Below are positions 1,201 to 34,482 of a stretch of DNA of 64,000 nucleotides, piece after piece. Position 1 is the first letter of the stretch. Every line of letters starts with the position of its first letter. The notes under the pieces are model-generated. The model saw only the letters and a program-made list of their open reading frames with translations. It searched no databases and had not been told where the DNA came from. Origin of the DNA: Eledone cirrhosa (lineage: Eukaryota); assembly GCA_964016885.1 (NCBI GenBank), contig OZ024743.1, positions 237,522,001 to 237,586,000 of the forward strand, read 5' to 3'. Both the position numbers and the translations under genes were made by a program.

Positions 1201-1326
1201 CTAGGGCTCATATACTCGGGATTGTTATACGCCATCAAATACAGTAAGTAGATCTCACTTTTAACTCACAAATACTTTACCAGATTCCTTTTATACAATG
1301 ATACAAAGAACTAGATATTTACTTAC

Positions 1327-1387
1327 CTCGCGATGTACGATTCTTCTGTTTGTCATGCCAGGCTTCAACAGTCAATGTGAATGATTG
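1327..1387 (-). CDS. Delta: Delta/Delta-like Notch ligand, 61-nt coding exon (end of MNNL/C2 domain): QSFTLTVEAWHDKQKNRTSR+G
   Basis: Minus strand reads ttttcttcttCAG|CAATCATTCACATTGACTGTTGAAGCCTGGCAT...TCGCGAG|GTAAGT. The peptide matches the Delta motif (G)TFSLI(V/I)EAWH that follows FSFSWP, and phase 0 fits the upstream exon. Confidence 0.9.
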
Positions 1388-1584
1388 CTGAAGAAGAAAA
1401 GTAACACCATATTATATATGAAGTCTTCACAGTTGTATTTTTTCAGTCCTTATCCAGGATTCAACACCAATAGGTAAGGGTTGGCATGAATACTGAATTA
1501 AAGATAGTGAGTTTGGTTTTTACACCTTCACATGAACGAACATTGAAGCTGGCACATTACTGCACCCAGCTCCTGCAATTCTTA

Positions 1585-1650
1585 CTCCATTCTGTCTGCC
1601 GGGGCTGTGGGGAGGCCACCAATATGATTGACTGACTTGTCATTTATCAG
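1585..1650 (+). mobile_element. 3' end fragment of the CRE-like non-LTR element
   Basis: GCCGGGGCTGTGGGGAGGCCACCAATATGATTGAC matches the reverse complement of the element end at about 45800-45850. Confidence 0.6.
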
Positions 1651-1779
1651 TCAGATGTTCCAACGATTCTATTTATATATATTTATATATATATATATAC
1701 GTTCATATATATAAATATATACATTTACGTTTAGGTTGTGCCTTGAAATCAATTAGTTTTAACTCAATATACATTAATC

Positions 1780-4700
1780 CCGTTAATTCAACCTTCTACC
1801 TTCCATCACTCATGAAATCAATTTTGAGTTACTTGAACTTTTCCACCTGGTTCAGTGGAACTCCACTCAAATGTAAAGTGCACTTATCAAGATGTGCAGC
1901 ACTCAGCACCAAACCTATCAAGTGCACATCGGAGATCACCTTCTGCCAACTTAAGAACTAACATGCTGTTTGGAAATTCCAGCTGAGCGATCCTACACCC
2001 ACCTGTCTTGATACCACATTCAATTTGGCTGTCAATCCTGTTCATGAAGATTATGAACAGGAGAGGTGATAATACACACCCTTGGCAGTGTCTGGCTCCC
2101 ACATCAAATGGTTTAGTACACACCCTTGGCAGTGTCTGGCTCCCACATCAAATGGTTTAGTACACACCCTTGGCAGAGTCTGGCTCCCACATCAAATGGT
2201 TTAGTACACACCCTTGGCAGAGTCTGGCTCCCACATCAAATGGTTTAGTACACACCCTTGGCAGAGTCTGGCTCCCACATCAAATGGTTTAGTACACACC
2301 CTTGGCAGAGTCTGGCTCCCACATCAAATGGTTTAGTACACACCCTTGGCAGAGTCTGGCTCCCACATCAAATGGTTTAGTACACACCTTGGCAGTGTCT
2401 GGCTCCCACATCAAATGGTTTAGTACACACCCTTGGCAGAGTCTGGCTCCCACATCAAATGGTTTAGTACACACCCTTGGCAGAGTCTGGCTCCCACATC
2501 AAATGGTTTAGTACACACCCTTGGCAGAGTCTGGCTCCCACATCAAATGGTTTAGTACACACCCTTGGCAGAGTCTGGCTCCCACATCAAATGGTTTAGT
2601 ACACACCCTTGGCAGAGTCTGGCTCTCACATCAAATGGTTTAGTACACACCCATGGCAGTGTCTGGCTCTCACATCAAATGGTTTAGTACACACCTTGGC
2701 AGTGTCTGGCTCCCACATCAAATGGTTTAGTACACACACTTGGCAGTGTCTGGCTCCCACATCAAATGGTTTAGTACACACCCTTGGCAGAGTCTGGCTC
2801 CCACATCAAATGGTTTAGTACACACCCTTGGCAGTGTCTGGCTCCCACATCAAATGGTTTAGTACACACCCTTGTCAGAGTCTGGTTCCCACATCAAATG
2901 GTTTAGTACACACCTTGGCAGTGTCTGGCTCCCACATCAAATGGTTTAGTACACACATTGGCAGTGTCTGGCTCCCACATCAAATGGTTTAGTACACACC
3001 TTGGCAGTGACTGGCTCCCACATCAAATGGTTTAGTACACACCCTTGTCAGAGTCTGGTTCCCACATCAAATGGTTTAGTACACACCTTGGCAGTGTCTG
3101 GCTCCCACATCAAATGGTTTAGTACACACCCTTGGCAGTGTCTGGCTCCCACATCAAATGGTTTAGTACACACCCTTGGCAGAGTCTGGCTCCCACATCA
3201 AATGGTTTAGTACACACCCTTGGCAGTGTCTGGCTCCCACATCAAATGGTTTAGTACACACCCTTGGCAGTGTCTGGCTCCCACATCAAATGGTTTAGTA
3301 CACACCCTTGGCAGAGTCTGGCTCCCACATCAAATGGTTTAGTACACACCCTTGGCAGAGTCTGGCTCCCACATCAAATGGTTTAGTACACACCCTTGGC
3401 AGTGTCTGGCTCTCACATCAAATGGTTTAGTACACACCCTTGGCAGAGTCTGGCTCCCACATCAAATGGTTTAGTACACACCCTTGGCAGAGTCTGGCTC
3501 CCACATCAAATGGTTTAGTACACACCCTTGGCAGAGTCTGGCTCCCACATCAAATGGTTTAGTACACACCCTTGGCAGAGTCTGGCTCCCACATCAAATG
3601 GTTTAGTACACACCCTTGGCAGAGTCTGGCTCCCACATCAAATGGTTTAGTACACACCCTTGGCAGAGTCTGGCTCCCACATCAAATGGTTTAGTACACA
3701 CCCTTGGCAGAGTCTGGCTCCCACATCAAATGGTTTAGTACACACCCTTGGCAGAGTCTGGCTCCCACATCAAATGGTTTAGTACACACCCTTGGCAGAG
3801 TCTGGCTCCCACATCAAATGGTTTAGTACACACCCTTGGCAGAGTCTGGCTCCCACATCAAATGGTTTAGTACACACCCTTGGCAGAGTCTGGCTCCCAC
3901 ATCAAATGGTTTAGTACACACCCTTGGCAGAGTCTGGCTCCCACATCAAATGGTTTAGTACACACCCTTGGCAGAGTCTGGCTCCCACATCAAATGGTTT
4001 AGTACACACCTTGGCAGTGTCTGGCTCCCACATCAAATGGTTTAGTACACACCCTTGGCAGAGTCTGGCTCCCACATCAAATGGTTTAGTACACACCCTT
4101 GGCAGAGTCTGGCTCCCACATCAAATGGTTTAGTACACACCTTGGCAGTGTCTGGCTCCCACATCAAATGGTTTAGTACACACCCTTGGCAGAGTCTGGC
4201 TCCCACATCAAATGGTTTAGTACACACCCTTGGCAGAGTCTGGCTCCCACATCAAATGGTTTAGTACACACCTTGGCAGTGTCTGGCTCCCACATCAAAT
4301 GGTTTAGTACACACCCTTGGCAGAGTCTGGCTCTCACATCAAATGGTTTAGTACACACCCTTGGCAGTGTCTGGCTCCCACATCAAATGGTTTAGTACAC
4401 ACACTTGGCAGTGTCTGGCTCCCACATCAAATGGTTTAGTACACACCTTGGCAGTGTCTGGCTCCCACATCAAATGGTTTAGTACACACCTTGGCAGAGT
4501 CTGGCTCCCACATCAAATGGTTTAGTACACACCCTTGGCAGCATCTGGCTCCCACATCAAATGGTTTAGTACACACCTTGGCAGTGTCTGGCTCCCACAT
4601 CAAATGGTTTAGTACACACACTTGGCAGTGTCTGGCTCCCACATCAAATGGTTTAGTACACACCCTTGGCAGCATCTGGCTCCCACATCAAATGGTTTAG

Positions 4701-4960
4701 TACACACCCTTGGCAGAGTCTGGCTCCCACATCAAATGGTTTTCACTTAGTGCCAATTATCTGAACACAAATACTAGGGCATTCATAGAGGAACTTCAAG
4801 TCAATAAGAAGCTGTCCATTGATTCCATACTCCAGCAGAACATTCCACAACAATTCCAATGGAATGTGTATGTATGCTTTCCCAAGGTTTATAAAACTTC
4901 TTGACAATATTCCCAAGAGTTCTTGTAAAGAGTTCTTGTAAATATTTGCTTGGCTGTCCT
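1780..4960 (-). pseudogene. Degenerate LINE (RTE-like) reverse transcriptase fragment split by an internal 44-bp tandem expansion
   Basis: Minus-strand translations FINLGKAYIHIPLELLWNVLLEYGINGQLL and QGCVLSPLLFIIFM are non-LTR RT motifs (DxxKAYD; QGxxLSPxLF). Confidence 0.8.
2073..4742. repeat. 44-bp minisatellite, about 60 copies, derived from LINE RT coding sequence
   Basis: Unit CCCTTGGCAGAGTCTGGCTCCCACATCAAATGGTTTAGTACACA, highly homogeneous. Confidence 0.95.
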
Positions 4961-21446: not shown

Positions 21447-21498
<52 letters not shown>

Positions 21499-22334
21499 AG
21501 GGTGTTAAAGTTTGCTTGAAGCATTGTGAAATGTGTAAAAATACGTATTTAAGAAAGCCACAACAATGCAAAGGGAAATCTCGAGGTAGGAAGTGAAATA
21601 TAGATAGGAAAACAGGTGAAAGTGAAAGTTGAGAGAGACAAAGATGAAAACAAAACAAAGGTAGAAGGGTTACCGTAGTAGAGATTTTAATTCCAATATT
21701 TCGGGCTCACGCCCATCAACGGGGGAAAAGTTCCAAAAGGGGGGAAAACAGGCCAAGCGGAGAAAGTGGTGATGTCGTTAAGACAGGAATGCCGTTATGG
21801 GGAGAAAAATATTTAAAATTTAAACGAGGGAGAGAATGCGCGTGCGCGTGATAAGCTGTGGCAAAAGCTACTGACCAAATGGGTTAAATCAAAATACTGC
21901 GTTAGCGTGTGAAAGCCTTAAGATATGTGTATGTAAATATATATGTGTGTGTGACTGTGTGTGTATAAGTGTAAGTGTGTATATGTGTGAGTGTGTGTGT
22001 GTGTGAAAGATAGTGGGCTGTAGAAGTTGGAAATCAAAGGGTGTGAAAGGTGGTAGGTTGTAAAATATGTGTGCGTGTATAAATATAGAAGTGTGTGTGT
22101 GTAAGCGTGTGGGTATACATGTGTGTGTGTAACTGTGTATGTATATGTGTGAGTGCGTATGTGTGTGAAAGATAGTGGGCTGTAGAAGCTGGAAATCAAA
22201 GGGTGTGAAAGGTGGTAGGTTGTGAAAACATGTGTGCGTGTAAAATATAGAAGTGTGTGTGCATGCGTATGGGTATGCATATACGTGCGTGTGTGTGAAT
22301 ATAGCAGGCCGTAGGCTGTGAATGGTCATTATGG

Positions 22335-23711
22335 TTAAATTAGCCATGTCAGCTCATTTCTCTCAGCCCGGTTGTTAAGTGGGGGTCTGAGGTTCTTAAT
22401 AACAAGTGCTTCCTTTATCCTTAAGGATCCGATGCTGCGTTCAGTCGCTAGGACTGTGACCAAGGGTCTACCCTGTGGGTTTCCGCATTTGAGGATATGT
22501 TTACGGAAGGAAGATGCGTTGGTGTTGATATGTTCCTTGATACGAACATGTAGGGGTCGGATGGTGCTACCTATGTAAAACTTGTTACATTTATCGCATT
22601 GAATCTTATATACGACATAGGTGCGTAGGCAATCTGCCCCCCGTATCGGGCAGTTGCTGAGGGAACAAGTCCTATCTGCCTCGTAGGGTTTGTTGGAGAG
22701 GCATCTTCGCAGCGAAGGTCCTGTGTGGGCCAAATGTATGTCAAGTCCCTCCGTACGTATGGCCCTGCGGATGGCGTTCGTGGTATATTCACTCAGGTGG
22801 GGGATTTTAAAGAAGCACCTGCTAGTATTAAGTTTTCTAGTGGGTGTCGGTCTACTGGGTCTGGGGTCTCTAATTCCGTTAATCAGTCGCTTGGGATAAC
22901 CATTAGATCTGAGTAGATTACGGAATTGCGTGGTATGGGTGAGACCACCCATCGGGTCGCTGCATCTGTTAGTGATCCGTGTCAGTTCATTTAGGACATA
23001 GCCTCTCTTAGCGTTGTTGGGGAGGGCTGAGTTATAATGCACAAATAGGTCCTTGCACGCTGCTTTGCGGTAGAAAGTGGTGTTTATGTCTCCTTGTTCC
23101 GAGATGTTGATACGGAAGTCGAGGAGGGCGAGTGACCCGTCTTCTCCCGGGTGTTCGATGGTGAAATCGATGTGTTGGTCAGTATCGTTGAAGATTTGGT
23201 GAATTTCATTCGCCATCTCCCGGGAAGAAGTAAGTATCAGGATATCATCAACGTATCTGGAGTAGAAGGCGACGGCGTTGGGTTGGCAGGTATTGAGTGC
23301 CTTGCGTTCCAGGTGGTCCATGTACGAGATCGCAAGTATGCCGGACAGACTAGAGCCCATAGGTAGCCCAGAGATTTGTTTGTACGTGTGGCCGAGGAAA
23401 TTGAAGAGTGCATTATCCACAACGAAGGAGAGGAGTTGGTGGATGTCCGTGTGTGTGAGTCCGAAGCAGTGTAGGTTAGATGCTCGGACTCGTTCGGTCA
23501 ACAGGTCGACAGCTGGGGATGCTGGTACGGAGGTATAAAGGGAGACCACATCAAGACTGAAGGCATAACCGTTGTCCTTTCTGGTGTTGGGCGCCAGATG
23601 GTGTAGTCGCTCCAAGACTTCCATTGAGCTGCAGACGTGGGCTGGTAGTGTGTGTAGAATAGGTTTAAGTAGTGTGGAGAGCAGCCACGATATTTTATAG
23701 AGTGGGCCCAC
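22335..23711 (-). CDS. Penelope-like RT + GIY-YIG endonuclease, 5'-truncated (left arm)
   Basis: SLDVVSLYTSV, QISGLPMGSSLS, RYVDD, LLDF; VVYKIQCDKCNKFYIGST..R..EH..EAL.I....P.LN. No native N-terminus. Confidence 0.88.
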   Translation of the reverse strand: MGPLYKISWLLSTLLKPILHTLPAHVCSSMEVLERLHHLAPNTRKDNGYAFSLDVVSLYTSVPASPAVDLLTERVRASNLHCFGLTHTDIHQLLSFVVDNALFNFLGHTYKQISGLPMGSSLSGILAISYMDHLERKALNTCQPNAVAFYSRYVDDILILTSSREMANEIHQIFNDTDQHIDFTIEHPGEDGSLALLDFRINISEQGDINTTFYRKAACKDLFVHYNSALPNNAKRGYVLNELTRITNRCSDPMGGLTHTTQFRNLLRSNGYPKRLINGIRDPRPSRPTPTRKLNTSRCFFKIPHLSEYTTNAIRRAIRTEGLDIHLAHTGPSLRRCLSNKPYEADRTCSLSNCPIRGADCLRTYVVYKIQCDKCNKFYIGSTIRPLHVRIKEHINTNASSFRKHILKCGNPQGRPLVTVLATERSIGSLRIKEALVIKNLRPPLNNRAERNELTWLI

Positions 23712-25108
23712 TCTATAAAATATATTTTATAGAGGGCCCACTCTATAAAATATCGTGGCTGCTCTCCACACTACTTAAACCTATTCTACACACACTACCA
23801 GCCCACGTCTGCAGCTCAATGGAAGTCTTGGAGCGACTACACCATCTGGCGCCCAACACCAGAAAGGACAACGGTTATGCCTTCAGTCTTGATGTGGTCT
23901 CCCTTTATACCTCCGTACCAGCATCCCCAGCTGTCGACCTGTTGACCGAACGAGTCCGAGCATCTAACCTACACTGCTTCGGACTCACACACACGGACAT
24001 CCACCAACTCCTCTCCTTCGTTGTGGATAATGCACTCTTCAATTTCCTCGGCCACACGTACAAACAAATCTCTGGGCTACCTATGGGCTCTAGTCTGTCC
24101 GGCATACTTGCGATCTCGTACATGGACCACCTGGAACGCAAGGCACTCAATACCTGCCAACCCAACGCCGTCGCCTTCTACTCCAGATACGTTGATGATA
24201 TCCTGATACTTACTTCTTCCCGGGAGATGGCGAATGAAATTCACCAAATCTTCAACGATACTGACCAACACATCGATTTCACCATCGAACACCCGGGAGA
24301 AGACGGGTCACTCGCCCTCCTCGACTTCCGTATCAACATCTCGGAACAAGGAGACATAAACACCACTTTCTACCGCAAAGCAGCGTGCAAGGACCTATTT
24401 GTGCATTATAACTCAGCCCTCCCCAACAACGCTAAGAGAGGCTATGTCCTAAATGAACTGACACGGATCACTAACAGATGCAGCGACCCGATGGGTGGTC
24501 TCACCCATACCACGCAATTCCGTAATCTACTCAGATCTAATGGTTATCCCAAGCGACTGATTAACGGAATTAGAGACCCCAGACCCAGTAGACCGACACC
24601 CACTAGAAAACTTAATACTAGCAGGTGCTTCTTTAAAATCCCCCACCTGAGTGAATATACCACGAACGCCATCCGCAGGGCCATACGTACGGAGGGACTT
24701 GACATACATTTGGCCCACACAGGACCTTCGCTGCGAAGATGCCTCTCCAACAAACCCTACGAGGCAGATAGGACTTGTTCCCTCAGCAACTGCCCGATAC
24801 GGGGGGCAGATTGCCTACGCACCTATGTCGTATATAAGATTCAATGCGATAAATGTAACAAGTTTTACATAGGTAGCACCATCCGACCCCTACATGTTCG
24901 TATCAAGGAACATATCAACACCAACGCATCTTCCTTCCGTAAACATATCCTCAAATGCGGAAACCCACAGGGTAGACCCTTGGTCACAGTCCTAGCGACT
25001 GAACGCAGCATCGGATCCTTAAGGATAAAGGAAGCACTTGTTATTAAGAACCTCAGACCCCCACTTAACAACCGGGCTGAGAGAAATGAGCTGACATGGC
25101 TAATTTAA
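23672..25108 (+). CDS. Penelope-like RT + GIY-YIG endonuclease, 5'-truncated (right arm; element sequence begins about 23734)
   Basis: Identical peptide to the left arm; the first ~20 codons come from the fold-back junction. Confidence 0.88.
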   Translation: MWRAATIFYRVGPLYKIYFIEGPLYKISWLLSTLLKPILHTLPAHVCSSMEVLERLHHLAPNTRKDNGYAFSLDVVSLYTSVPASPAVDLLTERVRASNLHCFGLTHTDIHQLLSFVVDNALFNFLGHTYKQISGLPMGSSLSGILAISYMDHLERKALNTCQPNAVAFYSRYVDDILILTSSREMANEIHQIFNDTDQHIDFTIEHPGEDGSLALLDFRINISEQGDINTTFYRKAACKDLFVHYNSALPNNAKRGYVLNELTRITNRCSDPMGGLTHTTQFRNLLRSNGYPKRLINGIRDPRPSRPTPTRKLNTSRCFFKIPHLSEYTTNAIRRAIRTEGLDIHLAHTGPSLRRCLSNKPYEADRTCSLSNCPIRGADCLRTYVVYKIQCDKCNKFYIGSTIRPLHVRIKEHINTNASSFRKHILKCGNPQGRPLVTVLATERSIGSLRIKEALVIKNLRPPLNNRAERNELTWLI

Positions 25109-25716
25109 CCATAATGACCATTCACAGCCTACGGCCTGCTATATTCACACACACGCACGTATATGCATACCCATACGCATGCACACACACTTCTATATTT
25201 TACACGCACACATGTTTTCACAACCTACCACCTTTCACACCCTTTGATTTCCAGCTTCTACAGCCCACTATCTTTCACACACATACGCACTCACACATAT
25301 ACATACACAGTTACACACACACATGTATACCCACACGCTTACACACACACACTTCTATATTTATACACGCACACATATTTTACAACCTACCACCTTTCAC
25401 ACCCTTTGATTTCCAACTTCTACAGCCCACTATCTTTCACACACACACACACTCACACATATACACACTTACACTTATACACACACAGTCACACACACAT
25501 ATATATTTACATACACATATCTTAAGGCTTTCACACGCTAACGCAGTATTTTGATTTAACCCATTTGGTCAGTAGCTTTTGCCACAGCTTATCACGCGCA
25601 CGCGCATTCTCTCCCTCGTTTAAATTTTAAATATTTTTCTCCCCATAACGGCATTCCTGTCTTAACGACATCACCACTTTCTCCGCTTGGCCTGTTTTCC
25701 CCCCTTTTGGAACTTT

Positions 25717-25752
25717 TCCCCCGTTGATGGGCGTGAGCCCGAAATATTGGGA
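25717..25752 (+). ncRNA. Variant minimal hammerhead in the Penelope pseudo-LTR (mirror copy 21691-21726 minus)
   Basis: TCCC-CCGTTGA-T-GGGC(GTGA)GCCC-GAAA-TA-TT-GGGA; core differs from CUGANGA at two positions. Confidence 0.5.
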
Positions 25753-25899
25753 TTAAAATCTCTACTACGGTAACCCTTCTACCTTTGTTTTGTTTTCATC
25801 TTTGTCTCTCTCAACTTTCACTTTCACCTGTTTTCCTATCTATATTTCACTTCCTACCTCGAGATTTCCCTTTGCATTGTTGTGGCTTTCTTAAATACG

Positions 25900-25940
<41 letters not shown>

Positions 25941-25961
25941 GTTATATATATATATATATGA

Positions 25962-27415
25962 ATAAAGTTAGTCCTTCATCAGTGATCTTCCAACCATCAT
26001 TGGTATTTCATCGCTTTAAAAACCATATACCTCCGGTTGGTGCGAGCAACGGCTAAAAAAAGTCGTTGGGACACGTAAATAAAGGGGACACGAGAGTGTA
26101 AACAAACAAAGATGGTGAAGCAACGAAAAGTGAGGAAGAAGGAGTTAAGTCCCAAATGTAACCCATTAGCAGCCACGCAGCACGTTTATTCTCATATTTA
26201 TGATTTACTGGTCCCAATAACTTTTTTTAGTTATTGCTCGCACCAACCTGAGGTATATGATTTTTAATGCGATGAAATATCAATGATGGTTGGCAAATCA
26301 CTGACGAAGGACTAATTTTATCATATGTAACCCATGTGCAACCACGCAGTATTCTTCTTTCTTCTCATGTTTTTTATATATATTTACCTCGGCTGCGTTT
26401 GTCTGTTTCTCTCTTACTGCTTCCCCGTTCTCTCCGTTGCTCTCACCTTCTTTCGCCCCCTCTGTCAGTTACACTTTCTCTCGACTGACCTCTTCCTCGC
26501 ACTTCCACTCACTCACTCTCTGTTTCTCTCCTTCTCACTTCCTCCCGTTTGGCTAGTAGTGGGTTCTCTTCTTGCTCACTCACGTCGGACGGTCTGTATC
26601 TTGATCGCTCATGAAATCCACCCAGCTTATGCTGACCGGACAACCATGTTGCTTGTTTTTTTTTCCTATCTTTGGTTTGCTTTTATCCTTCTATGTTGTT
26701 TACTTGTCCCCCTCGCTTTACGCGATTTACTGGTCCCAATAGCTTTTTTTAGTTATTGCTCGCACCAACCTGAGGTATATGATTTTTAATGCGATAAAAT
26801 ATCAATGATGGTTGGCAAATCACTGACGAAGGACTAATTTTATCATATGTAACCCATGTGCAACCACGCAGTATTCTTCTTTCTTCTCATGTTTTTTATA
26901 TATATTTACCTCGGCTGCGTTTGTCTGTTTCTCTCTTACTGCTTCCCCGTTCTCTCCGTTGCTCTCACCTTCTTTCGCCCCCTCTGTCAGTTACACTTTC
27001 TCTCGACTGACCTCTTCCTCGCACTTCCACTCACTCACTCTCTGTTTCTCTCCTTCTCACTTCCTCCCGTTTGGCTAGTAGTGGGTTCTCTTCTTGCTCA
27101 CTCACGTCGGACGGTCTGTATCTTGATCGCTCATGAAATCCACCCAGCTTATGCTGACCGGACAACCATGTTGCTTGTTTTTTTTTCCTATCTTTGGTTT
27201 GCTTTTATCCTTCTATGTTGTTTACTTGTCCCCCTCGCTTTACGCGATTTACTGGTCCCAATAGCTTTTTTTAGTTATTGCTCGCACCAACCTGAGGTAT
27301 ATGATTTTTAATGCGATAAAATACCAATGATGGTTGGCAAATCACTGACGAAGGACTAATTTTATCATATGTAACCCATGTGCAACCACGCAGTATTCTT
27401 CTTTCTTCTCATGTT
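25962..27415. repeat. 522-bp tandem duplication plus an inverted terminal copy, flanked by (TA)n
   Basis: Identical ORFs at 26334 and 26856; motif TTGCTCGCACCAACC...CACTGACGAAGGACTAA occurs three times direct and once inverted (25962-26075); related fragment at 39720-39808. Confidence 0.85.
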
Positions 27416-27419
27416 TATA

Positions 27420-28429: not shown

Positions 28430-31400
28430 GAATCGACCCCAGTACTAGACTGGTACTTTTTTTTATTGTCCTTAAATGAATGAAAAGCAAAGTTGACCTC
28501 GACGGGATTTGAACTCAGGGAGTAGAGAGCCGGAACTAATACCACAATGTATTCTATCTGACGTTCTACCAATACCACAAGGTATTCTATCTGACGTTCT
28601 AACGTCTCTACCAATACCACAAACTATTCTATCTGACGTTCTAACCACTCTACCAATACCACAAACTATTCTATCTGACGTTCTAACCACTCTACCAATA
28701 CCACAAGGTATTCTATCTGACGTTCTAACGACTCTACCAATACCACAAACTATTCTATCTGACGTTCTAACCACTCTACCAATACCACAAACTATTCTAG
28801 CTGACGTTCTAACAACTCTACCAATACCACAAGGTATTCTATCTGACGTTCTAACCACTCTACCAATACCACAAGGTATTCTATCTGACGTTCTAACCAC
28901 TCTACCAATACCACAAGGTATTCTATCTGACGTTCTAACCACTCTACCAATACCACAAGGTATTCTAGCTGACGTTCTAACCACTCTACCAATACCACAA
29001 ACTGTTCTATCTGACGTTCTAACCACTCTACCAATACCACAAACTATTCTATCTGACGTTCTAACCACTCTACCAATACCACAAACTATTCTATCTGACG
29101 TTCTAACCACTCTACCAATACCACAAGGTATTCTATCTGACGTTCTAACGACTCTACCAATACCACAAACTATTCTATCTGACGTTCTAACCACTCTACC
29201 AATACCACAAACTATTCTAGCTGACGTTCTAACCACTCTACCAATACCACAAGGTATTCTATCTGACGTTCTAACCACTCTACCAATACCACAAGGTATT
29301 CTATCTGACGTTCTAACCACTCTACCAATACCACAAGGTATTCTATCTGACGTTCTAACCACTCTACCAATACCACAAACTGTTCTATCTGACGTTCTAA
29401 CCACTCTACCAATACCACAAGGTATTCTAGCTGACGTTCTAACCACTCTACCAGTACCACAAGGTATTCTAGCTGACGTTCTAACCACTCTACCAATACC
29501 ACAAGGTATTCTAGCTGACGTTCTAACCACTCTACCAATACCACAAGGTATTCTATCTGACGTTCTAACGACTCTACCAATACCACAAACTATTCTATCT
29601 GACGTTCTAACGACTCTACCAATACCACAAACTATTCTATCTGACGTTCTAACCACTCTACCAATACCACAAGGTATTCTATCTGACGTTCTAACGACTC
29701 TACCAATACCACAAACTATTCTATCTGACGTTCTAACCACTCTACCAATACCACAAACTATTCTAGCTGACGTTCTAACCACTCTACCAATACCACAAGG
29801 TATTCTATCTGACGTTCTAACCACTCTACCAATACCACAAGGTATTCTATCTGACGTTCTAACCACTCTACCAATACCACAAGGTATTCTAGCTGACGTT
29901 CTAACCACTCTACCAATACCACAAACTGTTCTATCTGACGTTCTAACCACTCTACCAATACCACAAGGTATTCTAGCTGACGTTCTAACCACTCTACCAG
30001 TACCACAAGGTATTCTAGCTGACGTTCTAACCACTCTACCAATACCACAAGGTATTCTAGCTGACGTTCTAACCACTCTACCAATACCACAAGGTATTCT
30101 AGCTGACGTTCTAACCACTCTACCAATACCACAAGGTATTCTATCTGACGTTCTAACCACTCTACCAATACCACAAGGTATTCTAGCTGACGTTCTAACC
30201 ACTCTACCAATACCACAAGGTATTCTAGCTGACGTTCTAACCACTCTACCAATACCACAAGGTATTCTATCTGACGTTCTAACCACTCTACCAGTACCAC
30301 AAGGTATTCTATCTGACGTTCTAACCACTCTACCAAAACCACAAGGTATTCTATCTGACGTTCTAACCACTCTACCAATACCACAAGGTATTCTATCTGA
30401 CGTTCTAACCACTCTACCAAAACCACAAGGTATTCTATCTGACGTTCTAACCACTCTACCAAAACCACAAGGTATTCTATCTGACGTTCTAACCACTCTA
30501 CCAATACCACAAGGTATTCTATCTGACGTTCTAACGACTCTACCAATACCACAAGGTATTCTAGCTGACGTTCTAACCACTCTACCAATACCACAAGGTA
30601 TTCTATCTGACGTTCTAACGACTCTACCAATACCACAAACTATTCTATCTGACGTTCTAACCACTCTACCAATACCACAAGGTATTCTAGCTGACGTTCT
30701 AACGACTCTACCAATACCACAAACTATTCTATCTGACGTTCTAACCACTCTACCAATACCACAAACTGTTCTATCTGACGTTCTAACGACTCTACCAATA
30801 CCACAAACTGTTCTATCTGACGTTCTAACGACTCTACCAATACCACAAACTGTTCTATCTGACGTTCTAACGACTCTACCAATACCACAAGGTATTCTAT
30901 CTGACGTTCTAACCACTCTACCAATACCACAAACTGTTCTATCTGACGTTCTAACCACTCTACCAATACCACAAGGTATTCTATCTGACGTTCTAACCAC
31001 TCTACCAATACCACAAACTGTTCTATCTGACGTTCTAACGACTCTACCAATACCACAAGGTATTCTATCTGACGTTCTAACGACTCTACCAATACCACAA
31101 ACTGTTCTATCTGACGTTCTAACGACTCTACCAATACCACAAACTGTTCTATCTGACGTTCTAACGACTCTACCAATACCACAAGGTATTCTAGCTGACG
31201 TTCTAACGACTCTACCAATACCACAGGGTATTCTATCTGACGTTCTAACCACTCTACCAATACCACAAACTGTTCTATCTGACGTTCTAACCACTCTACC
31301 AATACCACAAGGTATTCTATCTGACGTTCTAACGACTCTACCAATACCACAAATTGTTCTATCTGACGTTCTAACCACTCTACCAATACCACAAATTGTT

Positions 31401-31478
31401 CTATCTGACGTTCTAACCACTCTACCAATACCACAAATTGTTCTATCTGACGTTCTAACCACTCTACCAAGTCGCCGC
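28430..31478 (-). mobile_element. SINE family A copy whose 5' A-box region is amplified into a 42-bp array
   Basis: SINE head at about 31478; single B-box GAGTTCAAATCC and GTACCAG tail at 28430-28520. Confidence 0.8.
28540..31470. repeat. 42-bp minisatellite, about 70 copies
   Basis: Unit CTACCAATACCACAAGGTATTCTATCTGACGTTCTAACCACT with a few alternating variants. Confidence 0.97.
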
Positions 31479-34191: not shown

Positions 34192-34482
34192 CGGCCAAGA
34201 GAAAGAGAAGGGCAGTCTGATGGTTTGTGGGATTTTTGCATGGGTCCCGAGATGAAATGTACTTTCACCAAGAACTGGCGTCATATCAAAACCAAACGTA
34301 CATTTAGAATCCAGTGGAGCTGGATTTTGGTAATGCATCAGGCATATGGAGAAGAAAGTCCGACACTTTTCCGAGCAGACTGGATTTTCAGAGATGCCCG
34401 CGCAACATGTCCTCGTCTGGGTGATGCTGTCACTGTTGTAGAAAGCTATTATTCGAACTTCAAACACACCTGAAGCCCTCAC
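34192..34482 (-). CDS. Delta: Delta/Delta-like Notch ligand, 291-nt exon encoding the MNNL/C2 domain: VRASGVFEV...CRTFFSICLMHYQ...CTFG..MTPVLG...LPFSFSWP
   Basis: Acceptor tctttgTAG|GTGAGG and donor TGGCCG|GTAAGT; hallmark DSL N-terminal motifs SGVFE, CC.G, CRTFFxxCLxHYQ, CTFG, TPVLG, PFxFxWP. HYQ and the next-exon sequence favour Delta over Serrate/Jagged. Confidence 0.93.

What the first reader, a model, noticed from the sequence alone, without database searches (positions are those of the whole stretch)
21536..25907. 4.4-kb Penelope palindrome with a double fold-back scar at its centre
Seen: two 5'-truncated copies with uninterrupted RT + GIY-YIG frames, joined head to head. The junction is GGGCCC-ACTCTATAAAATA|TATTTTATAGAG-GGCCC. 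The sequence turns at the 6-bp palindrome GGGCCC, copies 13 nt, turns again at a TATA palindrome, and turns once more at GGCCC with a 2-nt loss. Both outer ends run into or near (TA)n. Known: PLE insertions often include inverted, truncated segments. Inference: this records repeated hairpin self-priming of the cDNA 3' end at micro-palindromes in a very young insertion. Inside the Delta intron it would form about 2.2 kb of double-stranded pre-mRNA, a potential ADAR or RNAi substrate.
Basis: partly seen in the sequence, partly recalled or inferred. Interest (0 to 1): 0.75.

Follow-up and report, generated by a model that had tools for sequence, protein, structure and literature searches.

The report
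Head-to-head Penelope insertion, snap-back scar
This 4.4-kb mirror-image stretch in an intron of a Notch-ligand gene is two shortened copies of a Penelope-like jumping gene joined head to head, a layout already described for these elements and shared by most sampled copies of this family, and it was likely made when both cut DNA ends copied the element's RNA and the two copies were joined through short self-primed hairpin repairs.

Summary
The palindrome is real: arms 21536-23722 and 23723-25907 with one mismatch outside the centre, open RT + GIY-YIG frames, in an intron of a Notch-ligand gene. The layout is the family norm: 62 of 89 loci picked by a tail-less end and 27 of 40 picked by a tail end have an inverted partner, and 86 of these 89 pairs are one tail plus one tail-less arm. 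The tail-less arm often reaches further upstream than the tail arm, so it cannot be a fold-back copy of it. Against intact copies the 22-nt centre needs no '2-nt loss': it is snap-back synthesis at cDNA ends plus a 2-3-nt microhomology join, as at other, lopsided junctions. Best reading (0.55): two cDNAs primed at the two target ends, then end-joined. One-strand fold-back stays possible for this locus (0.27). The structure is in print (PMC3846280, PMC8557442), and this scan has noted the same pattern and idea on other DNA, this genome included. No independent reads or RNA were available.

The parts
21461..21496 (.). (TA)18 target microsatellite, left side
21496..21535 (-).
21536..23709 (-). 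Left arm: 5'-truncated copy, unit positions 1277-3451 (RT C-terminal part, linker, GIY-YIG, 3' UTR with a 162-bp duplication)
21692..21692 (.). Only arm-to-arm substitution (partner 25751); the left-arm base is found in 0 of 101 other loci that cover it
23710..23731 (.). 22-nt templated insertion: 23710-23723 is the reverse complement of 23690-23703; 23722-23731 is the reverse complement of 23744-23753
23732..25907 (+). Right arm: 5'-truncated copy, unit positions 1275-3451, no tail
23741..25108 (+). Stop-free RT + GIY-YIG frame (455 aa), lacking the N-terminal 430 aa of the 887-aa family ORF; mirror copy at 22335-23702 on the minus strand
25724..25744 (+). Hammerhead-like motif seen by eye (variant first core half, short stem, GAAA); no Rfam match
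   Evidence: by eye; negative; motif recalled
25906..25959 (.). (TA)n target microsatellite, right side
34192..34482 (-). Host Notch-ligand exon (MNNL, profile 1-98), upstream of the insertion in the gene
1327..1387 (-). Next host exon (61 nt, in phase), downstream of the insertion in the gene

Best explanation
This is a Penelope-like insertion in a (TA)n run with one tailed and one tail-less arm, and it likely arose when both ends of the cut target primed reverse transcription on the element's RNA, one at the tail start site and one 40-42 nt further in, after which the two cDNA 3' ends were likely joined by short snap-back synthesis and a 2-3-nt microhomology. Shown: arm ends, arm extents, and the base-by-base origin of the 22 central nucleotides. 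Inferred: both cDNAs stopped within 2 nt of each other at unit positions 1277 and 1275; either each end snapped back once (left at GGGCCC, +14 nt; right at a native 3-bp stem with a 6-nt loop, +10 nt) and they joined by AT, or the left end snapped back twice and joined the right end by GAG. Both routes account for every base without a deletion. The joining enzyme (polymerase-theta-type repair or the RT itself) is not known. Being intronic, the insertion would give about 2.2 kb of double-stranded pre-mRNA (untested).
For: One-tail rule: of 89 loci picked by a tail-less end, 62 have an inverted partner and 59 of the 62 partners carry the tail; of 40 loci picked by a tail end, 27 have a partner and 0 of 27 carry a tail. 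The tail-less arm starts more than 100 nt upstream of the tail arm in 22 of 59 pairs and 4 of 27; in L102, L111 and L140 the tail arm is only about 12-16 nt against 150-3,400 nt, so it cannot have templated the other arm. 27 of 89 tail-less arms stand with no full partner, so that end behaves as a priming site. Of 62 junctions 29 are microhomology joins, 10 blunt, 11 have 1-4 extra nt, 12 have 5 or more; mean overlap 1.9 nt among the 39 overlap/blunt joins against 0.6 by chance. Inverted templated inserts of 13 nt or more occur in 5 of 62 (L046, L100, L105, L109, this locus), four of them at lopsided junctions. Arms share locus-private variants also where fold-back cannot work (L033, L042, L043, L046), and 6 of the 10 non-majority bases shared by this locus's arms are inherited from a sister lineage. 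In vitro a PLE cuts and extends both target strands, starts at two RNA sites that bound the tail, and is predicted to be a dimer (PMC11167929, main text read). Snap-back synthesis that makes new microhomology is described for end joining (PMC5728401 passages) and at R2 5' junctions (PMC11371274 passages).
Against: Arm lengths are strongly coupled (Spearman 0.74; 13 of 59 pairs within 2 nt against 1.6 by permutation; for tail arms starting before 3100, 2 of 22 against 0.09), and 9 of 27 in the tail-side sample, 5 of them away from the 3188 hotspot: fold-back predicts this directly, while two cDNAs need a shared stop or a broken RNA end. This locus is one of those symmetric cases. Three changes (unit 2762, 2877, 3374) are shared by both arms and absent from the two sister copies, a fourth (1319) lies outside them: they fit first-strand errors copied into a second arm as well as an unsampled source. 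The excess of longer tail-less arms (22 against 6) did not repeat in the tail-side sample (4 against 4). Neither proposed priming hairpin is the predicted minimum-energy fold of the cDNA end. The in vitro paper does not address inverted copies in the parts read.
Confidence: 0.55

Rival explanations
1. One cDNA, primed at the tail, folded back at GGGCCC, copied 14 nt, folded back again and then copied itself for 2.2 kb, dropping 2 nt at the first hairpin tip; the second arm was cut or stopped 40 nt short of the tail.
For: Explains the near-perfect symmetry and the arms' shared private changes without a common stop. Self-priming is the published reading of palindromic PLE junctions (PMC3846280 passages). 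Symmetric junctions at short palindromes recur (L065, L090, L137, L171, L183).
Against: Needs a 2-nt loss that happens to restore the native sequence; needs a separate reason for the copy to end exactly at the tail border; cannot make the 26 of 86 pairs whose tail-less arm is over 100 nt longer, so it would be a second route beside the main one.
Confidence: 0.27
2. All pairs start as perfect fold-back palindromes and the centre is later broken and rejoined (cruciform or hairpin opening), leaving short inverted extensions here and one-sided deletions elsewhere.
For: Inverted junctions in transgene arrays mostly carry asymmetric deletions thought to stabilise them (PMC8701086 passages; the centre-break paper was seen only as a reference entry, its mechanism is recalled). 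Would explain coupled arm lengths with either sign.
Against: Lopsided pairs are as young as symmetric ones (arm substitutions 23 in 15,781 nt against 4 in 5,049 nt, Fisher p 0.37). It needs kilobase one-sided losses that leave 12-16 nt of tail (L102, L111, L140) and still needs a 2-nt edit at this centre.
Confidence: 0.12
3. Assembly or sequencing artefact (fold-back chimeric read).
For: No independent read set spans the junction; the runs laid hold the family but no contig or read covers 23714-23760.
Against: The palindrome stops at the element's two known ends with different flanks, follows the family's one-tail rule, has an arm mismatch, and the host exons keep order and strand on both sides; 88 other loci have the layout with different junctions.
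Confidence: 0.03

Closest known systems
Insertion units of endonuclease-bearing Penelope-like elements: partial tandems, inverted 5'-truncated copy, 30-40-bp tail on one end, palindromic junction (PMC3846280 and PMC8557442, passages read)
   Same: Inverted 5'-truncated copy, one-sided 40-nt tail that is the start of the ORF unit, head-to-head palindromic junction, (TA)n target, 3.45-kb tandem unit.
   Different: Arms here are 2.17 kb and nearly spacer-less, the longest of the 13 symmetric pairs in the 59-pair set; the papers read the junction as self-priming and the tail as endonuclease resolution, whereas the family data here favour two primed ends.
Anolis Poseidon element PAc in vitro (PMC11167929, main text read)
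   Same: Two RT start sites that bound the tail, AT-rich targets, both target strands cut and extended.
   Different: Different clade features (this family has a cysteine linker before the endonuclease); inverted copies are not treated in the parts read; supplements not read.
Snap-back synthesis-dependent microhomology-mediated end joining (PMC5728401 passages) and snap-back 5' junctions of R2 insertions (PMC11371274 passages)
   Same: Short inverted templated insert beside the break that creates the microhomology used for joining.
   Different: Here the two ends joined are likely two cDNA ends of the same sequence rather than chromosome ends or cDNA and target.
L1 twin priming (recalled; only search listings seen)
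   Same: Both target strands prime; cDNA 3' ends are joined by microhomology, giving an inversion.
   Different: In L1 the second primer sits at a variable internal site and the pieces barely overlap; here the second start is fixed 40-42 nt from the first and the arms duplicate each other.

Membership tests
EN+ Penelope-like elements (C-terminal EN) | Single ORF with RT followed by C-terminal GIY-YIG endonuclease | tested here: met
   887-aa ORF in L034 with RVT_1 421-606 and GIY-YIG 794-838
EN+ Penelope-like elements (C-terminal EN) | [quoted passage not shown] | tested here: met
   Present in the family ORF and conserved in the 30 best of 76 homologues aligned; motif definitions from PMC8557442 passages
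EN+ Penelope-like elements (C-terminal EN) | Partial tandems, inverted 5'-truncated copy, one-sided 30-40-bp tail | tested here: met
EN+ Penelope-like elements (C-terminal EN) | Canonical hammerhead ribozyme in the pLTR | tested here: inconclusive
   Variant motif seen by eye at 25724-25744; no Rfam hammerhead match; fold not significant
EN+ Penelope-like elements (C-terminal EN) | Target-site duplication | not testable with these tools
   Both ends lie in (TA)n; empty site unknown
Naiad/Chlamys | N-terminal endonuclease | tested here: not met
   EN is C-terminal
Hydra | No CCHH, DKT instead of DKG, CxCX5C linker | tested here: not met
   CCHH and DKG present, linker C-x4-C-x6/7-C
Penelope/Poseidon | No cysteine linker between RT and EN | tested here: not met
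   Three conserved linker cysteines in the family ORF and in all 30 homologues aligned
Neptune or Nematis | CX2-5CxxC Zn-finger-like linker | tested here: inconclusive
   Linker has three cysteines but spaced C-x4-C-x6/7-C, not CxxC
Neptune or Nematis | RT phylogeny with named reference elements | not testable with these tools
   No named PLE references among 76 homologues or in PDB

The most novel reading that the evidence does not exclude
Penelope-like elements integrate by obligatory two-ended priming: an enzyme dimer starts one cDNA at the tail site and one at the tail border on the same RNA, and the 3' ends are stitched by snap-back end joining. This locus would be a rare long case in which both cDNAs stopped at one place, so that the joining steps can be read base by base, and the one-tail rule (86 of 89 pairs) would answer how these elements make inverted repeats and one-sided tails.
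Probability: 0.5. Interest if true: 0.55.

Novelty: new member of a known kind. Interest (0 to 1): 0.3.

Why it matters
The locus itself is ordinary. Its value is as evidence on an open question that the field names itself: how Penelope-like elements form tandem/inverted structures and a one-sided tail (PMC8557442). The family counts give a sharp, testable rule (one arm from each RT start site, either arm the longer, end-joining scars at the centre) that links the in vitro two-site, two-strand priming result to genomic copies. A young, intact, autonomous-looking family with kilobase hairpins in introns would also be a standing source of long double-stranded RNA, which is untested.

Tried and rejected
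Reads: one run search listed 23 runs, no RNA holder listed. Four runs laid on the left flank and junction were uninformative: the flank is itself repeated and no piece spans the stretch. Four runs laid on the centre hold the family and its native continuation after 23709, but nothing covers 23714-23760; one of the four had no reads there; this hole is no evidence either way, and the samples may be another individual or species. Genome-wide end counts (155 tail-less, 574 tail) are not like for like, since older subfamilies end at 3446-3449 with other letters, so they were not used as a ratio. Rfam found no hammerhead; folding of the 3' region gave nothing specific; PDB had no relative. Clade placement by named references failed. 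L114 was cut on the wrong side of its end and dropped; 9 of the first 100 listed tail-less ends were not fetched and 55 more were not listed; 10 of the 89 loci had been fetched earlier as long copies, two of them (L033, L057) out of list order. Some of the 12 inserts of 5 nt or more are locus variants against the reference (L073, L123, part of L100), so only exact templated matches of 13 nt or more were counted. Considered and rejected: 'TATA micro-palindrome' as a pre-existing turn site (not native); shared private variants as proof of fold-back (they also occur where fold-back cannot work, and 6 of 10 are inherited); A-to-I editing as source of the three T-to-C changes (too few, one is inherited). 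Literature: 'twin priming' + 'Penelope' gave 3 papers, none on PLE mechanism by listing; 'Penelope-like' with at least two of 'head-to-head', 'both strands', 'target-primed' from 2022 on gave only PMC11167929. Subscription papers and supplements were not seen, so the two-ended model may be in print elsewhere.
Full report
Observation. The window holds one long inverted repeat with no spacer. Base by base, the arms pair from 21536 to 25907 with a single substitution at 21692/25751; four further mismatches in the centre come from a 2-nt shift between the outer axis (23721|23722) and the inner axis (23722|23723). Each arm has a stop-free frame with RT and GIY-YIG matches. The insertion sits between two (TA)n runs in an intron of a minus-strand Notch-ligand gene: MNNL exon at 34192-34482, an in-phase 61-nt exon at 1327-1387, DSL and EGF exons just beyond the window start. 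Delta versus Serrate was not tested. The label 'octopus-like genome' comes from earlier scan notes and was not tested.

The family. A search of the own genome gave 1,230-1,512 first-look candidates per query, 40 scored each. Tandem copies define a 3,451-nt unit with an intact 887-aa ORF. The ORF has GxKF, DKG, CCHH and a three-cysteine linker, which excludes Naiad, Hydra and, by the published motif rule, Penelope/Poseidon; Neptune versus Nematis is open (definitions from PMC8557442 passages).

The centre. Intact copies read GAG-GGCCCA-CTC at this place, and public contigs confirm the native continuation. The left arm is native to 23709 and the right arm is native from 23732, leaving 22 nt. These are fully templated: 23710-23723 is the reverse complement of 23690-23703; 23722-23731 is the reverse complement of 23744-23753; 23724-23734 is the reverse complement of 23711-23721. 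Two reconstructions with two cDNAs use every base without loss: one snap-back on each end and a 2-nt AT join, or two snap-backs on the left end and a 3-nt GAG join. The one-strand reconstruction needs a 2-nt loss that restores the native sequence. The central TATA is a product, not a pre-existing palindrome.

Family-wide test, tail-less side. An exact 24-nt pattern for the tail-less end gave 155 places, 100 listed. I examined 89 loci holding 90 of them (79 newly fetched, 10 already held including this one); L114 was mis-cut and dropped and 9 were not fetched. 62 of 89 have an inverted partner; 59 of 62 partners carry the tail, two are tail-less and one has part of the tail. Among the 59, the tail-less arm starts further upstream in 30, further downstream in 16, within 2 nt in 13; beyond 100 nt the split is 22 against 6. 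Three tail arms are only about 12-16 nt long. Arm starts are correlated far beyond permutation. 17 of 89 loci have an arm starting at unit 3185-3194 (counted by hand), likely the RNA's 5' end; 8 of the 13 symmetric pairs sit there. Junctions: 29 microhomology, 10 blunt, 11 with 1-4 extra nt, 12 with 5 or more, of 62; exact templated matches of 13 nt or more in 7 (inverted in L046, L100, L105, L109 and this locus; direct in L121, L125). L100 has a multi-turn scar on one end of a lopsided pair.

Family-wide test, tail side. Of 574 tail ends (100 listed) I took 40 on contig C1 that were not already held. 27 of 40 have an inverted partner, none with a tail; 9 are symmetric within 2 nt, 10 have the tail-less arm longer, 8 shorter; beyond 100 nt 4 against 4. 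So the one-tail rule repeats, the length bias does not, and symmetric joins away from the hotspot are common (5 of 27), which keeps fold-back alive as a route.

Variants. The two arms share 10 non-majority bases. Only two other places in the genome carry the diagnostic cluster; they share 6 (L144) and 5 (L145) of the 10, while three are in neither and one lies outside both. Most shared changes are thus inherited from a source lineage whose full copy was not found in this assembly. Shared private changes also occur in pairs that fold-back cannot make. Lopsided and symmetric pairs do not differ in arm divergence.

Mechanism. Shown: the ends, extents and central bases. Inferred: both target ends primed, one at each of two start sites, as a PLE does in vitro (PMC11167929, parts 1-2 of 4 read), and the cDNA ends were joined by snap-back, microhomology-type repair (PMC5728401 and PMC11371274 passages). 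I put this at 0.55 for this locus, one-strand fold-back at 0.27, later centre breakage at 0.12, artefact at 0.03. The family-level case for two primed ends is stronger than the case for this symmetric locus.

Comparison with what is known. Inverted 5'-truncated copies, a tail on one end and palindromic junctions read as self-priming are described (PMC3846280, 9 passages; PMC8557442, passages). My searches did not find the two-ended reading in print, within an open-access library. I noted that reading; look-ups afterwards showed that this scan has reached it on other DNA several times, in this genome too. Those notes are unchecked and are not counted as support.

Not settled. No independent read spans the junction and no RNA holder was listed, so polymorphism, age in generations, editing and silencing are untested.

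Verdict. A real, young, ordinary PLE insertion of a known layout; interest 0.3, carried by the mechanistic rule that the family supports rather than by the locus.

Noticed in passing
window 25645 (unit position 3188): Hotspot where arms begin: 17 of 89 loci have an arm starting at 3185-3194, about 80 nt before the hammerhead-like motif; likely the RNA 5' end.
   Followed up: partly
window 28565-31470: 69 copies of a 42-bp unit, 95% matches, with stop-free frames of about 1,000 aa on both strands, in the same host intron.
   Followed up: no
window 25962-26321 and 26202-27416: Imperfect inverted repeat with 119-nt arms directly right of the insertion (MITE-like); its right arm lies in a 522-bp unit present about 2.3 times in tandem at 98-99%.
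   Followed up: no
window 2073-4742: 61 copies of a 44-bp unit at 97% matches.
   Followed up: no
L031 (7782) and L037 (5215): Two places on different contigs share the same junction (inverted unit piece 377-595 joined to 502); the inverted piece does not reach the 3' end, like an internal second priming; may be one locus assembled twice or a daughter copy.
   Followed up: no
L121, L125, L032, L098: Direct-repeat templated inserts at 5' junctions, up to three rounds of a 17-nt piece in L121.
   Followed up: partly
L064, L115, L123: Exceptions to the one-tail rule: two pairs with both arms tail-less and one with a partial tail.
   Followed up: no
L144 and L145: The only other carriers of this locus's diagnostic variant cluster; both are 5'-truncated, tail-less and without a partner, so the lineage's source copy was not found in this assembly.
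   Followed up: partly
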